This document shows positions 55,501-61,500 of a DNA stretch of 64,000 bases, piece after piece. The position numbers are program-made. Position 1 is the first letter of the stretch, and each line of letters starts with the position of its first letter. This DNA comes from Escherichia coli (GTDB lineage: Bacteria > Pseudomonadota > Gammaproteobacteria > Enterobacterales > Enterobacteriaceae), in the NCBI RefSeq assembly GCF_024298765.1, contig NZ_CP101210.1. One strand, 5' to 3'.

Positions 55501-58500
55501 TTTGTATAAATGGACATATACCATTGGAAGATTTAGAAAAGCATGTCCAGGAGTTTAAGGACAAATCTCATACTGATTATCGGAAGCTTTTATCATTATA
55601 TGATTACCAAGCATACAATGTATAATTATATACACTATTATTGTGATTATAATTTGTTACTGTGCCACTCAAGGGCAATATCTTTGAAGGTGTTGTTTAA
55701 CTGCGTTTCCCGGGCAATCTTTTCCTCTCGCTTCACTTCCATCAGATCGATTCCCCCAGAGATACCTCTTTTAGCTTCTTCAAGTTTTGCAGGAGCATCA
55801 GCTAAGGTGACCTCAGGATACACACCTAGTGCTAACAGCTTCTCTTTACCAGCTACACGATACTTGAGACGCCAATATTCTCCTCCACCAGGTTTTACCA
55901 GGAGGTACAGACCACCACCATCAGCCAACTTGTAAGCCTTCTCTTTTGGCTTGGCAGTGTCTATTTGACGGGCATTGAGTTTCACTTGGGGGTATCTCCA
56001 CTAAACTGAACAGCAAATCCCCTCAATTGCTTGTAGAGTTTGGGGTACTTAAATAGACGTCAAAAGACTAAAAGGGGCATTAATATACTGATTATAAGAG
56101 GTTTTTAAATACTTGAGTAGACTTGGGGAGACGTTAGAATGGTGCCGATAATAGGAGTCGAACCTACGACCTTCGCATTACGAATTAGCGAGACCAGTGA
56201 TTCAAGATGTTCACAGCCGTTTCAGCATGAAATAAAAAATATATAAAAATCAACAAAATAAACATAAATGCAGTATCAAGATGTTTCGCCTTGTTTCTGA
56301 TGATATCATGTTAAATGTGTACCCCACTGTGTACCCAAAAGGCTGAAGATATGACTTTTACTATTACACAAGACAGACAATTGGCTTCATTGACCGTTAC
56401 TAAAGAAGAAAAAGAAATCTTATTTGCTGTAAAATCTAAAGCTGGGGGAGGACTCTTTATACGCGTTCGTTATGGTAGCGACAATAAAAGCTGGATTTAT
56501 CGTTATCGAATAGCTCAAAAGCCAGCTAAATTAACACTAGGTAGTTACCCTGCCATGGGATTAGCTCAAGCTCGTAAAGCTCATGCGGATGCAATTGAAT
56601 TAGTAAGAAAAGGTATAGATCCTCGTCATATTAGAAAAAATGAAAAACAAAAAAATGAACAAATGATTATTTACTCTGAATTATGGAAAGATTGGATAGA
56701 ATTCAGAAAGACAAGTAAACCAATTAGCACCAGAACCCTTGCAGATTATGAAGGGACTTATCACCGCCACCTTGAAAAAGCATTAGGAAACCTTCGCATT
56801 GACGAACTTACCAAAAGCGTTATTTTTGAACATCTCAGTAATGTAAGAAAAACCAGTTCTGAAGCAGTTCGTAAAGGATTAATTATTCTAAATATGACTC
56901 TTGATCATGCCAACTTACAGGGTATGCTTGAGCATAACCCAGCACGACTGCTCAAACCAGCAATGTTTGGTGCATCGATGAATAAACCTCGCGAGCGATG
57001 GCTTCCTGAGAATGAACTCCGGATGCTATGGAAGGCTTTGGATGATGCTACTGTTGGAGGAGGCTCCATTGCATCTGGTGGCTATGGAATTTCCTCTAGT
57101 GTGGTATTATCTCATTCTGTCGCAAATGCACTCCGTTTGATTATTTTCACAGGAGTGCGCCGCTCTGAAGCGGCACAAATGCGCTGGGATCAAATTAATG
57201 GAGAGCGTTGGACCATACCAGCCACTAAAAATGGGAAAAGCCATATTGTTACTTTACATCCGTATATGCTTTCTTTAATAAAAACACAACGTGAATTCAC
57301 TGAAGGTGCATATGTTTTTGGTTCTACTAGCAAACCTGGCTTTCCCATCACAAATGACGCTCTGACTCGCGCGTTAGAAAGGGTTCGCTCTAAGTATCTA
57401 GCCGAACTTACTCCATTTTCTCCTCATGATCTGCGTAGAAGTGTTGCGACTGGATGCGCTGAATACCTTGATGCTCCAGAGCGCCTAATAGAGTTACTGT
57501 TAAATCATGTACCCAAAGACCGTTTAATACGAACATATCAAGTCGGACAACAAGCTGAAAAATTAAAAAATTTATTTATAGAATGGGGGAATTTTATTAT
57601 GAATAACGTCATTACTGTGCAGCAGAATGCTCCGGATAATGTTATTCATATAAAATTTGGGAACAGATGATAAAAATACATGCATGGTCTGAGATACCCT
57701 GTCTACTCGACCATGCAGTATGGTTCAACTAAATCAGTCACAACAAGAAATGATTAGTTTTATTAGATATTGTATGGGATTATTTCTGGATAATACTTCG
57801 CAATGATGTCATTTAGCCGATCAACCAGTTCTGGTTTTCTGAACGTGATATGCGCGGAGCCCTTCTTAAAGTATCTGATGCTGAACATCTCATCTTCATA
57901 GCAGGCTTTGCCCTGAACGGAGCGGATGTGATCATCCAGCCGAATAATGATATTTTCCCGGCTGTCGGGGATCGGTTTGCCGCTGAACAGGTGCAGCATT
58001 CTTTCCAGGTCGGCAAGTCGATCTACCTGTTGCCCGCTGTTCAGATGAAATCCCCACCGGTCCCATCTCACCAGATTGTTGACGATAATTTTATTACCAA
58101 ATTTACAGGGGGAGTTGGTTTTGTAATTCCAGCTCAACCCTCTGAAGACGTTGATCACCCCTCGCTCAAACACCTCATCCTTATTCTGGTGCAGTTGTTC
58201 AAATGTGCTCAGGATGTTCGCTTCGCTGATTTCCGGAAAATTATCGTATTCCAGTGACCGATACCATGTATCACGGGCCTGCGCATCCATTAATGACAGC
58301 ATCCCGGAGCGTTGCATCAGGTCACGCCAGATTTCGCGGTCAAGATTGCGGGTGATAGCTTTCATTGCGGTTTCAGGTTTCTCCATCAGCCAGCAGCCGC
58401 AGCGAAAATCCTGTTTCATGGCCCAGTCCAGTGCGGTTTTACCTCCAATACTTTCTGTCATTGCTGATATTTCAGCCAGTTGCCGGATAAGTGTGTCGAT

Positions 58501-61500
58501 TTGCAGCAGTGTACTCTTTCGTACAGCCAGAATGTGGCTGACTGAGGTTGAGCAGATAACGTCCGTATGCCCGTTGACCACTTCCGGACGGGAGAGTGTG
58601 ATTGCAGACATAATCGATATTCCTTTTCGCAGATAAACGAAAACGCCAGCCCTGTTCAGGCTGGCGTCAGGGTAATGAAGCGTGGTGAGTGATATTCACC
58701 GGTTCTGGTGCAGAAGCTGCAGATGACGCAGGGTACGGACATCCTCTCTGGCCTGTTCGATACAGGGCAACAGTGCTGCCGAATCCGTTCTATCCTCATC
58801 GTTGTCAAAGATAATTCCCGATTCGCAGTCGATATTGTCCTGTAGCCACGCAATCAGAATATCCAGTGCGGTTTCCGTGGTTAATGATTTCATGTTGTTC
58901 CTGGTTACCAGTCGAAAGTGGGCAGGTCCGGCAGACATTCAGCGCTGGCATCCAGATGAATGAGACTGACGCCATAACGTTGGATGAGTGTGACAACCAG
59001 ACGACGGAACGTTTTTGACAGCCCCAGGCGCTTGAGCCGCAGAACCGGATATGACCACGCATCGGTACGTAACAGATATCCGCTACCTGTGAAATGAATC
59101 CATTCTGATTCACCGAAGTCACTGGTCTGGTGTGACAGCGAGTACAGCCAGGCGTTATCCTTTTCCGTGATATGTGCGGTACTGCAGCGTATGCCGGCAA
59201 GGGTTGCAAACGGTGGTAGTGTGCAGGTTGACTGTTGGTCGGATTCCTCCACCACGCGGAGTGAATAACCGTTTTCAGCGACTTTGTTAATCAGTTCAGC
59301 GAGCTCAATACTATCGACGTCAACGACAATGCGCCCCATGTTCAGCGCCTGCGCATTAATGCTGTCGGCTTCCAGCGTCAGGGCCAGTTGCATCGTTTCG
59401 CCCCCGGATGTTTACCCAGGGTAATGTTATTTACCGTTCTGTAGTTGTCGCGTGTCATCAGGCCGGTTGCCCGGCGTGCCCGGAGGATATCAATACTGTT
59501 TATTAACTGAGAACGGGTACAGGCGCTGAATCCCGGCTGGTCGGTACGTACCAGTGCGTATTTTTCAACGAGAAAGTTCACCGCATCGCACAGTGAAATG
59601 CCTGCCTCAATATGCTGCTCAATCACACGTTCATCAGCGAACGGTGTGTCATTCAGCGTAAGGCCGTAATGCTGGTCCAGCAGTCGGGTGAGCAGTGTCT
59701 GCCAGATTTCAACCGGAGACGGGCGTGAACTGGCCGCCTGCCCGGGTAATACAGGTAATGTTTTCATACTGAAGATTTTCCTGATATGCAGAGATGAAAA
59801 ATGGAAAAGTGGCGTGGTGAAAGCACCAGGCCGGAGCAGAAGGTTATTCTGGAGAGTTACTTTTTCGTTTCGGGCGTCGGATAAACAGCCATATAAACGT
59901 AGCCACAACTGCCGAGGGTGTCGGCTTCGCAGGTCAGCCCTTTTGCATACAGCGTGACGGTATGCTGATGGCGGGAATTCAGTTCACCGCTGGTGAGCAT
60001 GAGTTCCAGTTGTTTCATCAGCAGCGGAAAGGCCTGGTCCAGGTGGTACGAATCCGCGTCGCTGAACCGGCCTCTGATACCGGCGCGGTCGGCAAGGTAA
60101 TGCAACCGGTTGCCCTCCTGCACCAGACGGGCGCCGAAACAGGGCGTCACGGTGCAGGGTAGTCCCCACCAGGGACGGTCATGATTGTCATCGGGATGCG
60201 TTGTCCCGGAGAGTGTGTCTGACACGATAAAATCCTCACAGAAAATCGGTGAATGATAGTTTAACGATGACGAGTCAGCCGGCGCGCAGACCGGCTTCGG
60301 TGAAGGTGTATTCGTTGATGAGTAGGGCCTCATCCACAGCGGCGTCTGAGGTCAGCCAGTCGTACTCGTTTTCCAGTTGACGGTACAACCAGAAGGCCAG
60401 GTCGCGCAGGGCTTCACTGACTGCGGCTTCCGCATCGGCTGTCATAGCCTGACCAGTCGGACTGTTCCTGGTAACTGTGATATCCATGCTGTACGGATGG
60501 CAGTAACGTCCCCGGTGACTGATTTCAGCCTGTAATTGCCAGAAGTTACGTTTCTGCACCGCCTGCAGGGCATCCGCGATACGATGGAGTTCATGCTCCT
60601 GTGGGGCATACTTCCGGATTCTTCTGACTGTCGCTGGCTGCCAGTGCCAGCGTCCTTCAAAACAGGCTCCGTCCCCCTGGCTGCAGAATCCGCTGAACCA
60701 GATGCTCGGCTCTTCCATAAACCTGCCGTTGCTGAGCCGGAAAACGCGCTGGCGGAGGTCAATTCCGAAAATGCCACAGACCTCCCTGAAGTCTTCATAC
60801 ACGTTTTCATACCAGTTGCTGTCAGCATGATGCTGACGGTACCCGTCGCGGGCTTTTTCCTGTGCCGGGCAGGAAAGCTCATCCAGCGTATACACGGTGG
60901 TGGTGATAATTCTGCTCATCAGAATGCCCTGATTCAGTTCAGTGTGACGCTCATCAGCCGGACATACGGGCCAAAACTGTCCTTACGACGTTCAGCAAAC
61001 ACGGCCAGCACACCGGGAATATCCTGCACTTCACGACCGGTATACGCTTCAGTGCTGCCGTGCCAGCGGTACTTACCGGTACAGAACGGAAAAAGACGGG
61101 ATGCAGGATGCTGACGGTGAATACGCATGGCTTCACCACGGGTGATGATTTTCATAATGGGATACCTCTGAAGACAGAAGATAAAAGTGAAAACAGGTGT
61201 GATGTGGTTGTGGCGGTGACGGGTTAAAGCAGGCCGTGTTCCGCAAAGGAGAAAACCTGGCTGCCACCGACTATCAGATGGTCCGGCACCCGGATATCCA
61301 CCAGGCCCAGTGCCTGTACCAGACGTTCCGTGATAAGCCGGTCAGCCTTACTGGGGGTGACTTCACCGGACGGGTGGTTGTGTGCCAGCACCACGGCAGC
61401 GGCATTGTGGTACAGGGCACGTTTAATCACTTCCCGGGGATGGACTTCCGTGCGGTTGATGGTGCCGGTGAAGAGGGTTTCACCGGCAATCAGCTGATTC

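What the first reader, a model, noticed from the sequence alone, without database searches (positions are those of the whole stretch)
57763..59393. Three uncharacterised cargo genes between the integrase and the toxin-antitoxin pair
ORFs of 282 aa, about 65 aa and up to 162 aa lie on the same strand downstream of the CbtA-like toxin, convergent with the integrase gene. Integrase-proximal variable regions of tRNA-integrated elements are known hotspots for anti-phage defence and other accessory cargo. None of the three has a motif I can recognise by eye (no Walker A, no obvious nuclease or methyltransferase signature), so their function is open.
Basis: inference. Interest (0 to 1): 0.55.

Follow-up and report, generated by a model that had tools for sequence, protein, structure and literature searches.

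The report
Conserved island backbone genes, not cargo
The three unknown genes are real, but they are a conserved, already catalogued part of a genomic-island backbone found in about 91% of complete E. coli genomes, and the variable defence-gene slot lies just beyond them and is empty here.

Summary

They are not variable cargo. They end the conserved module DUF932, KlcA-type antirestriction, RadC/JAB, DUF987, CbeA, CbtA, DUF5983, DUF957, DUF4942. This block occurs in 4949 of 5426 complete E. coli genomes, with a median of 3 copies, and across Enterobacterales.

The integrase is the island's own. A thrW 3' fragment (56140-56184) flanks it, and the same arrangement is found in Dickeya and Pectobacterium.

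The real hotspot is the position between DUF4942 and the island end. Relatives carry DarTG, AbiE, PifA, ParDE or PADLOC candidate systems there. In this window it holds only 92 bp.

None of the three matches a PADLOC model or a solved fold. Plasmid homologues of DUF4942 and of the DUF5983 C-domain sit one or two genes from oriT in leading regions, and DUF4942 occurs fused to methyltransferases. The best guess is therefore an establishment or counter-defence role rather than defence. That role is inferred, not shown. Interest is low to moderate.

The parts
57763..58611 (-). [not shown]
58642..58668 (-). Terminator-like hairpin (11-bp stem followed by a U-rich tail) in the 84-nt gap between DUF957 and DUF4942. 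It could be an attenuator.
   Evidence: The consensus scan finds it. The fold energy is -25.9 kcal/mol with z = -3.35. Its function was not tested.
58696..58893 (-). Small acidic protein of 65 aa (pI 4.4). RefSeq calls it 'DUF957'. Older name L0009. It is probably the AntiFam entry ANF00264.
   Evidence: RefSeq annotates it. Current Pfam-A has no match. pN/pS is 0.34, and dN/dS against E. albertii is 0.15. The motif IIFDNDEDxTDS is conserved. In Serratia sp. DD3 it is fused in frame to the DUF5983 N-domain.
58905..59393 (-). DUF5983 protein, 162 aa, with two domains (YeeW, L0008, Aec77). Its start codon overlaps the end of cbtA.
   Evidence: Pfam DUF5983_N matches at 1.3e-27 and the DUF5983 C-domain at 1.6e-21. 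The overlap with cbtA is 16 nt. pN/pS is 0.36.
59378..59767 (-). cbtA, the type IV toxin gene.
   Evidence: RefSeq annotation of the identical locus.
59857..60225 (-). cbeA, the YeeU-family antitoxin gene.
   Evidence: RefSeq annotation.
60275..60919 (-). 214-aa protein of unknown function. It is a variably present insert inside the module.
   Evidence: It has no Pfam, NCBIfam or PADLOC match and hits only phrog_5162. It is present in 5 of 67 species loci. It is absent from the otherwise near-identical locus L084.
60934..63109 (-). Upstream backbone genes: DUF987 (60934-61155), RadC/JAB (61224-61700), KlcA/ArdB-type antirestriction (61715-62200) and DUF932 (62291-63109).
   Evidence: RefSeq annotation. 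The gene order is conserved across genera.
57671..57762 (.). Empty cargo slot between the DUF4942 stop and the integrase stop. It holds only a hairpin that looks like a bidirectional terminator.
   Evidence: Sequence reading and folds with z = -2.5 and -4.0. The equivalent slot holds DarTG in L073 and L064.
56351..57670 (+). The island's tyrosine integrase, 439 aa, at the attR end and reading into the island.
   Evidence: RefSeq annotation and a weak NCBIfam integrase-domain match. Orthologues at 78-79% identity sit in the same convergent position next to the same thrW fragment in Dickeya and Pectobacterium.
56140..56184 (-). Exact copy of the 3' 45 nt of tRNA-Thr thrW. This is the att core and marks the island boundary.
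   Evidence: The match is exact and none is expected by chance. It is identical to K-12 thrW positions 32-76. Homology with LH13-b starts at 56134.
55647..55985 (-). Truncated integrase (Arm-binding domain only) belonging to the neighbouring vat/vatX island.
   Evidence: ORF list and RefSeq annotation in L084.

Best explanation
Shown: the three ORFs are DUF5983 (YeeW-type), 'DUF957' and DUF4942. They are the conserved final genes of the backbone module of a CP4-44/CP4-57-type genomic island, in the order DUF932, KlcA/ArdB antirestriction, RadC-JAB, DUF987, CbeA, CbtA, DUF5983, DUF957, DUF4942. Here the island is integrated at thrW and carries its own integrase at the attR end. The three genes are a fixed border, not cargo. 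The variable slot lies between DUF4942 and the island end and is empty here.

Inferred: the module is the chromosomal counterpart of a plasmid leading region. On that reading the three proteins act in establishing the element in a cell, most likely by protecting it or countering host defences, rather than in anti-phage defence. DUF4942 is the non-catalytic module that precedes a class-I SAM methyltransferase domain in a family of larger proteins, some of them phage-encoded. As a stand-alone protein it probably works by binding DNA or a partner, not by methylating. DUF5983 and the small acidic DUF957 probably work together, because natural fusions exist, and DUF5983 is translationally coupled to cbtA.

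Confidence differs by part: about 0.95 for the identity and backbone claims, and about 0.35-0.4 for the establishment or counter-defence role. The single confidence figure given for this explanation (0.45) is for the whole statement, function included.
For: Identity: the Pfam matches and RefSeq names on 100%-identical DNA.

Conservation: the block is in 4949 of 5426 E. coli genomes with a median of 3 copies. In 67 loci from different species, DUF4942 is preceded on the same strand by CbtA in 61, by DUF5983 in 41 and by DUF957 in 22. All three genes show purifying selection.

Border of a variable slot: E. coli homology breaks about 20 bp inside the 3' end of DUF4942, and only 193 genomes keep the junction with this integrase. 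The 3 kb downstream in about 60 loci holds 178 ORFs falling into 134 clusters. These include DarTG, AbiE, PifA, PDC-S05 and PDC-M27C, and AbiE, ParDE, an EAL protein or a tRNA in four E. coli genomes.

Link to leading regions: DUF4942 homologues occur on 4943 plasmids, 4034 of them conjugative. In an IncI plasmid, ygfB is the second gene from oriT/nikA, in the same region as ardA, psiAB and ssb. The DUF5983 C-domain lies next to mobA and the relaxase gene. In Samuel et al. 2024 (PMC11541004), Supplementary Table 1 lists DUF4942 families 24 and 76 and DUF5983 family 72 among the 100 largest families enriched in leading regions, at median ORF positions 1, 6 and 2 from oriT. DUF945/932, DUF905 and KlcA are listed there too.

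Methyltransferase link: proteins of 468 and 559 aa carry DUF4942 N-terminal to an MTS methyltransferase domain, and phage homologues are annotated as methylases.

Fusion: Serratia sp. DD3 has DUF5983_N and DUF957 in one ORF.
Against: No experiment bears on any of the three proteins. No oriT or relaxase was identified in this island, and to my knowledge CP4-type islands are not known to transfer by conjugation. The leading-region comparison is therefore an analogy. Plasmid homologues are only 35-38% identical. On chromosomes DUF4942 is tightly linked to cbtA (61 of 67 loci), which fits a toxin-antitoxin-related role equally well. Enrichment in leading regions does not prove a counter-defence function. 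Neither fold matches a known antirestriction protein or any solved structure. DUF957 has no plasmid counterpart that I tested.
Confidence: 0.45

Rival explanations
1. The three genes are accessory components of the CbtA/CbeA toxin-antitoxin module. They could be a second antitoxin, a chaperone, a regulator or a sensor, extending the type IV pair into a multi-gene system.
For: The DUF5983 ATG overlaps the end of cbtA by 16 nt, and similar overlaps are seen in other genera. CbtA precedes DUF4942 in 61 of 67 species loci. A toxin-antitoxin survey scored DUF5983 as the usual downstream partner of CbtA (PMC10790755). The AntiFam study found ANF00264/DUF5983 consistently next to cbtA and cbeA.
Against: DUF4942 and DUF5983-C homologues on plasmids occur without cbtA nearby. 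In 18 of 67 loci cbtA is followed directly by DUF4942, with neither DUF5983 nor DUF957. In K-12, CP4-44 keeps only a 64-aa yeeW stub and a DUF957 remnant and has no DUF4942; from my knowledge of the literature, the CbtA/CbeA system was characterised functionally in that background.
Confidence: 0.25
2. One reading: the three genes are accessory anti-phage defence cargo in an integrase-proximal hotspot.
For: They lie next to the integrase of a tRNA-integrated island. The adjacent position is a real defence hotspot in relatives. Toxin-antitoxin modules can act in phage defence (general knowledge).
Against: None of the three, nor any other module protein, matches PADLOC at E <= 0.01 (the three genes were also clear at E <= 0.1). 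The block is conserved rather than variable. Plasmid homologues lie in leading regions, which are enriched for counter-defence genes rather than defence genes.
Confidence: 0.08
3. DUF4942 is a methyltransferase subunit acting in trans. It would recruit or direct a separately encoded methyltransferase (host Dam, HsdM or a plasmid orphan enzyme) to element DNA, so the block would be a modification system rather than an inhibitor.
For: DUF4942 is fused N-terminally to MTS-type methyltransferase domains. Phage homologues are annotated as methylases. Some database names read 'restriction methylase'. Orphan methyltransferases are prominent in leading regions (PMC11541004).
Against: No methyltransferase gene lies next to DUF4942 in this island or in the two plasmid contexts examined. 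The 282-aa protein has no methyltransferase domain. The stand-alone architecture of 260-290 aa is by far the commonest.
Confidence: 0.12
4. The genes are decaying remnants of a cryptic element with no current function.
For: K-12 carries only stubs. Truncated and IS-interrupted copies exist.
Against: Purifying selection is as strong as on cbtA. Reading frames are intact in many genera. The DUF4942 fold is predicted with confidence.
Confidence: 0.05

Closest known systems
[not shown]
   Same: The Pfam match covers the full model. The protein has the 260-290 aa stand-alone architecture shared by most of the best-scoring 150 of 2277 clusters. It occupies the same position after cbtA, yeeW and L0009 as in the SRL island (PMC6980539).
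   Different: Nothing structural differs. This allele is rare: it is exact in 3 genomes and about 80-95% identical elsewhere. It is only 35-38% identical to the plasmid YgfB/YdiA proteins.
DUF5983 / YeeW (L0008, Aec77)
   Same: Both Pfam domains are present. The gene lies directly downstream of cbtA and overlaps it.
   Different: K-12 YeeW is only the N-terminal 64 aa. Plasmid relatives carry the C-domain, mostly with a different N-terminal part. Here the protein is the full two-domain form.
'DUF957' / L0009, probably AntiFam ANF00264
   Same: RefSeq gives this name to the identical CDS. The position after DUF5983 matches what is described for ANF00264.
   Different: Current Pfam-A has no matching model. 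AntiFam calls the family spurious, whereas the selection data here support a real gene with its own start codon and ribosome-binding site, so no frameshift is required. I could not check directly that it equals ANF00264.
Leading-region 'anti-defence islands' of conjugative plasmids (Samuel et al., Nature 2024, PMC11541004)
   Same: The protein families are shared: DUF932/945, DUF905, KlcA, toxin-antitoxin pairs, DUF5983 and DUF4942. The genes are co-oriented, and DUF4942 or DUF5983 sits at the end nearest the transfer origin or element end.
   Different: This element is chromosomal, integrase-borne and tRNA-integrated. No oriT or relaxase was identified. SSB, PsiB and ArdA are absent from the part of the island seen in the window.
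CP4-44, CP4-57 and CP4-6 cryptic elements of E. coli K-12
   Same: The module from DUF932 through antirestriction, RadC and DUF987 to the CbtA-family toxin-antitoxin pair is the same.
   Different: K-12 lacks intact copies of all three genes in these islands. In CP4-6 the toxin-antitoxin end abuts the intact thrW. Here that end, together with the integrase, abuts the thrW fragment at the distal end.
Integrase- or att-proximal defence hotspots of integrative elements (for example P4-like satellites and P2 prophages; from general knowledge)
   Same: A position next to the integrase and att site carries interchangeable defence or toxin-antitoxin systems in related islands.
   Different: The three genes in the finding flank that slot and do not occupy it. 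In this window the slot is empty.

Membership tests
Pfam DUF4942 (PF13708) | Significant match to the family HMM over most of its length | tested here: met
   E 1.1e-68, model positions 1-190 of 190, residues 87-276.
Pfam DUF5983_N (PF25638) and DUF5983 C-domain (PF19419) | Significant matches to both domain HMMs | tested here: met
   E 1.3e-27 for residues 4-57 and 1.6e-21 for residues 69-162.
DUF957 | Match to a DUF957 profile | tested here: inconclusive
   The current Pfam-A library gives no match even at E <= 10 and NCBIfam gives none. RefSeq nevertheless names the identical CDS 'DUF957 domain-containing protein'.
Known or candidate anti-phage defence systems (PADLOC-DB 2.0.0) | Match of at least one protein to a defence-system model | tested here: not met
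   No family matches any of the three proteins at E <= 0.1, nor the other seven module proteins at E <= 0.01. The same library detects DarT/DarG, AbiE and PifA in the neighbouring slot of relatives, so the search was able to find such systems.
Class-I SAM-dependent DNA methyltransferase | A SAM-binding Rossmann-type methyltransferase domain | tested here: not met
   Pfam finds only DUF4942 in the 282-aa protein. Fused relatives of 468 and 559 aa do show an MTS domain C-terminal to DUF4942. The catalytic motifs themselves were not searched by pattern.
Plasmid leading-region gene families 24/76 (DUF4942) and 72 (DUF5983) of Samuel et al. 2024 | Homology to the plasmid YdiA/YgfB proteins and to plasmid DUF5983 proteins | tested here: met
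   tblastn gives 35-38% identity over 93-95% of DUF4942, with E about 1e-45. The DUF5983 C-domain is 29-44% identical. The family annotations are in the paper's Supplementary Table 1.
Plasmid leading-region gene families 24/76 (DUF4942) and 72 (DUF5983) of Samuel et al. 2024 | Location within the first ORFs after an oriT, on the strand that enters the recipient first | not testable with these tools
   This holds for the plasmid homologues. No oriT library was available to scan the island.
CP4-44/CP4-57-type island backbone | Co-oriented gene order DUF932, antirestriction, RadC, DUF987, CbeA, CbtA, followed by the terminal genes | tested here: met
   The window and 60 or more loci from other species share this order.
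tRNA-integrated island with its own integrase | A tyrosine integrase next to an att core derived from a tRNA 3' end, conserved together across hosts | tested here: met
   The thrW 3' 45-mer lies at 56140-56184. The same fragment lies next to integrases 78-79% identical in Dickeya and Pectobacterium. The other island end lies outside the window and was not seen.

The most novel reading that the evidence does not exclude
DUF5983, the small acidic DUF957 and DUF4942 would form a previously unrecognised counter-defence or establishment trio. It would be shared between chromosomal CP4-type islands and the oriT-proximal first genes of conjugative plasmids. DUF4942 would be a methyltransferase-derived binding module, with a fold that has no solved relative, that blocks or redirects host restriction-modification. 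DUF957 would be a DNA-mimic-like acidic dimer. On this view CP4-type islands carry a functional leading region and may be mobilisable.
Probability: 0.25. Interest if true: 0.6.

Novelty: already known. Interest (0 to 1): 0.27.

Why it matters
As a discovery this is ordinary. The three genes are catalogued DUF families that have been listed as unnamed ORFs in pathogenicity-island papers, for example the Shigella SRL island (PMC6980539). They are present in most E. coli genomes.

Three practical points follow.

1. These are among the commonest E. coli accessory genes without any functional data. One plausible reason is that K-12 carries only stubs of them. K-12 is therefore a clean background in which to test them.

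2. Their plasmid homologues are among the very first genes to enter a recipient cell. That makes them reasonable candidates for counter-defence or establishment factors.

3. The stop codon of DUF4942 is a sharp, easily searched landmark for a defence and toxin-antitoxin hotspot in Enterobacterales islands, holding DarTG, AbiE, PifA, ParDE or PADLOC candidate systems. It could be mined systematically.

Tried and rejected
- **Family libraries.** NCBIfam gave no family for any of the three proteins and PADLOC gave none. PHROGs gave only unknown-function families, plus one 'DNA methyltransferase' family that matches through its DUF4942 part.
- **Sequence searches against the PDB.** Neither single sequences nor profiles gave a significant match.
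- **RNA and tRNA searches.** Rfam found nothing in 55000-64000. ARAGORN found no tRNA in the window or in four related loci. The thrW fragment was found by reading the sequence and confirmed by pattern search.
- **A failed scan.** The search for related loci with the 89-sequence alignment failed for lack of a conserved stretch. It worked with a 10-sequence alignment.
- **Programmed frameshift joining DUF5983 and DUF957** (suggested in the AntiFam paper). I consider this unnecessary here. DUF957 has its own ATG and ribosome-binding site 11 nt after the DUF5983 stop, and in most genera the two genes are about 30 nt apart.
- **The integrase as part of a different element.** I rejected this. The integrase, the thrW fragment and the module move together into a different chromosomal context in LH13-b, and the same arrangement recurs in Dickeya and Pectobacterium.
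- **Repeats.** The repeat search around the integrase found nothing meaningful.

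
Full report
**1. Observation**

The region 57763-59393 holds three minus-strand ORFs: 282 aa (57763-58611), 65 aa (58696-58893, inside an ORF open to 58938) and 162 aa (58905-59393). They follow cbtA (59378-59767) and cbeA (59857-60225). They converge on a tyrosine recombinase gene on the plus strand (56351-57670).

RefSeq annotates exactly these CDS on DNA that is 100% identical in three complete genomes.

The 162-aa gene starts 16 nt before the cbtA stop codon. The 65-aa gene starts 11 nt after the stop of the 162-aa gene. The 282-aa gene follows after an 84-nt gap. Each gene has a plausible ribosome-binding site.

I compared each gene with orthologues taken from 80 loci of other Enterobacterales species.

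| Gene | Median pN/pS vs other genera | dN/dS vs E. albertii |
|---|---|---|
| 162 aa (DUF5983) | 0.36 | 0.26 |
| 65 aa (DUF957) | 0.34 | 0.15 |
| 282 aa (DUF4942) | 0.31 | 0.11 |
| cbtA (for comparison) | 0.35 | not computable (the matched stretch includes the stop codon) |

**2. Identity**

- The 282-aa protein is a full-length DUF4942 (PF13708, E 1.1e-68).
- The 162-aa protein has both DUF5983 domains.
- The 65-aa protein has no match in current Pfam-A, although RefSeq calls it 'DUF957'.

A 2026 paper on AntiFam reports that entry ANF00264, listed as spurious, folds confidently as a dimer and always lies next to DUF5983, cbtA and cbeA. From its position this is very probably the 65-aa gene. 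I could not test that directly. The selection data support the view that the gene is real.

**3. Backbone, not cargo**

A megablast of 57600-59500 finds the block in 4949 of 5426 complete E. coli genomes. The median is 3 copies per genome and the maximum is 13. In 3279 genomes, one copy covers at least 80% of the query.

In 67 loci from different species that have enough upstream sequence, DUF4942 is preceded on the same strand by CbtA in 61, CbeA in 55, RadC in 55, DUF5983 in 41, antirestriction in 40, DUF932 in 37 and DUF957 in 22. The order is always the same, with DUF4942 last. DUF5983 and DUF957 are optional members. DUF4942 is close to constant.

Four E. coli genomes sampled from different chromosomal sites show the identical four-gene run with the same spacing.

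Laboratory strain K-12 is an exception:
- CP4-44 keeps only a 64-aa YeeW stub and a DUF957 remnant, with no DUF4942.
- CP4-57 ends 189 bp after ypjF.
- CP4-6 has a pseudogene and then thrW.

**4. The island and its integrase**

No intact tRNA is present in the window. An exact copy of the last 45 nt of thrW lies at 56140-56184 on the minus strand.

To its left lie a truncated integrase (55647-55985) and the vat/vatX island. To its right lie the intact integrase and the module.

Homology with strain LH13-b starts at 56134, which is at this fragment. In that strain the same integrase and module lie next to a prophage and a truncated fimH.

In Dickeya oryzae and Pectobacterium brasiliense an integrase 78-79% identical lies convergent to DUF4942. 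The same thrW sequence lies about 170-180 bp beyond its start, and no intact tRNA is called there.

The integrase is therefore the island's own. It is specific for thrW and sits at the distal (attR) end of the island. The window shows a tandem array of elements at thrW.

**5. Where the variable slot is**

A 501-bp query across the integrase/DUF4942 junction is covered at 80% or more in only 193 genomes. In about 2800 others the match stops about 20 bp inside the 3' end of DUF4942.

What follows DUF4942 differs from locus to locus.

| Locus | What follows DUF4942 |
|---|---|
| Dickeya, Pectobacterium (L073, L064) | DarT (1.5e-64) and DarG (6.7e-143) |
| Several Pectobacterium | AbiEi/AbiEii |
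| E. coli ST131 | AbiE-type pair, by RefSeq annotation (DUF6088 protein plus a frameshifted AbiEii/AbiGii toxin gene) |
| Serratia oryzae | PifA (7e-80) |
| Serratia marcescens, Citrobacter | PADLOC candidates PDC-S05 and PDC-M27C |
| One E. coli (strain I2) | ParDE |
| One E. coli (STEC306) | EAL-domain protein and an IS |
| One E. coli (strain 107) | tRNA-Ser, i.e. the island end |
| Several species | Ordinary chromosomal genes |

Across about 60 loci, the 3 kb downstream holds 178 ORFs that fall into 134 clusters.

In this window the slot is 92 bp (57671-57762) and holds only a hairpin that looks like a bidirectional terminator.

**6. What the three proteins might do**

No PADLOC model matches them or any other module protein.

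*DUF4942.*
- It has 2277 clusters at 50% identity. Most of the best 150 are 260-290 aa stand-alone proteins, and a few are 460-560 aa.
- In the long forms DUF4942 is N-terminal to an MTS-type SAM methyltransferase domain. Phage homologues are annotated as methylases.
- The 282-aa protein has no methyltransferase domain.
- W95, D201, H254 and N267 are invariant in 89 diverse sequences. That is compatible with a binding site or an active site. I could not map these residues onto the model.

*Plasmid context.* This is the most informative evidence.
- DUF4942 homologues occur on 4943 plasmids, of which 4034 are conjugative.
- In an IncI plasmid, ygfB is the second gene from oriT/nikA. It lies in the leading region together with ardA, psiA, psiB, ssb and a KlcA-like gene.
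- In a Klebsiella plasmid it lies among a JAB-domain protein, Hha, DUF1380 and an antirestriction gene, upstream of mobA/traI.
- The DUF5983 C-domain occurs on 278 plasmids. In the one context examined it is two genes from mobA and the relaxase gene.
- Samuel et al. (Nature 2024) list DUF4942 (family 24: 2171 members, median position 1 from oriT; also family 76) and DUF5983 (family 72: 618 members, median position 2) among the 100 largest families enriched in leading regions. DUF945/932, DUF905 and KlcA appear in the same list.

Nearly every gene of the CP4-type module thus has a leading-region counterpart, and the module, like a leading region, reads towards the element end.

*DUF5983 and DUF957.*
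- DUF957 is small and acidic (pI 4.4) with a conserved FDNDEDxTDS motif.
- In Serratia sp. DD3 it is fused in frame to the DUF5983 N-domain, while the DUF5983 C-domain stands alone upstream. This points to a functional link between the two proteins.

**7. Best explanation and rivals**

The identity and backbone claims are shown. The functional claim is an inference.

- **Best explanation.** The three genes act in establishment of the element or in countering host defences, by analogy with leading regions. I put this at about 0.35-0.4.
- **Main rival.** They are accessory parts of the CbtA/CbeA module, at about 0.25. The start-codon overlap and the 61-of-67 linkage to cbtA support this. The plasmid homologues that lack cbtA weaken it, as does the loss of the genes in K-12, where, from my knowledge of the literature, the pair was characterised.
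- **Other rivals.** A trans-acting methyltransferase subunit (about 0.12), defence cargo (about 0.08) and non-functional remnants (about 0.05).

**8. Novelty and score**

The genes and their families are already known and annotated, and this allele is identical to RefSeq entries. Their enrichment in plasmid leading regions is published. Their function remains unknown.

What this analysis adds:
- the integrase and att structure at thrW is defined;
- the DUF5983_N-DUF957 fusion is documented;
- K-12 is shown to lack intact copies in its three CP4-type islands.

Interest is low to moderate (0.27).

Noticed in passing
window 60275-60919 (-): A 214-aa ORF lies between DUF987 and cbeA. It has no Pfam, NCBIfam or PADLOC match and hits only phrog_5162 (unknown function). 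It is present in only 5 of 67 species loci, sometimes between cbeA and cbtA, and is absent from the near-identical locus in APEC E12049. One RefSeq record names a homologue 'antitoxin of toxin-antitoxin stability system'. It is the only variable gene inside the module.
   Followed up: partly
window 56140-56184 (-), with 55647-55985 (-) and about 51830-55212: An exact copy of the 3' 45 nt of thrW separates two islands in tandem. The vat/vatX island, with a truncated integrase, lies to the left, and the CP4-type island lies to the right. ARAGORN does not report the tRNA fragment.
   Followed up: yes
L073 8858-10643 and L064 8933-10643: In Dickeya oryzae and Pectobacterium brasiliense a DarT/DarG pair fills the slot between DUF4942 and an integrase 78-79% identical to the one in the window. 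The same thrW fragment lies beyond that integrase.
   Followed up: yes
window 58642-58668 (-): A strong terminator-like hairpin with a U-rich tail lies between DUF957 and DUF4942 (z = -3.35). It suggests that DUF4942 is attenuated or separately regulated. Its conservation in other copies was not examined.
   Followed up: partly
L011 about 7549-7908 (Serratia sp. DD3); L028 6298-6627: A single ORF fuses the DUF5983 N-domain in frame to DUF957. The DUF5983 C-domain occurs as a separate gene upstream of cbeA. Serratia sp. DD3 carries at least six copies of the module.
   Followed up: partly
L016, L017, L018, L022, L024, L027, L031, L040 (Yersinia, Serratia, Edaphovirga): These loci show a different gene order, except that L016 shows no RadC or DUF5983-C hit: RadC, DUF5983-C, a CbtA-like gene, a CbeA-like gene, then DUF4942. 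The toxin homologue therefore precedes the antitoxin homologue. This rests on tblastn matches at about 50% identity only.
   Followed up: no
L086, L087, L088 (E. coli K-12 CP4-6, CP4-44, CP4-57): K-12 has no intact DUF5983, DUF957 or DUF4942 in these three islands. yeeW is a 64-aa N-terminal stub followed by a DUF957 remnant.
   Followed up: yes
L001 (strain LH13-b) 17408-20071 and 37877-39237: The same integrase and module, 100% identical, lie directly next to a prophage integrase on one side. On the other side the island, which carries a type I R-M system, ends at an IS1 inside fimH. This suggests an IS1-mediated rearrangement that moved the island.
   Followed up: no
L084 36783-42782 (APEC E12049, further along the same island): A three-gene cluster encodes a class I SAM-dependent DNA methyltransferase, a DEAD/DEAH helicase and a GIY-YIG nuclease. 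It lies in the cargo part of the island and looks like a defence system. It is outside the window.
   Followed up: no
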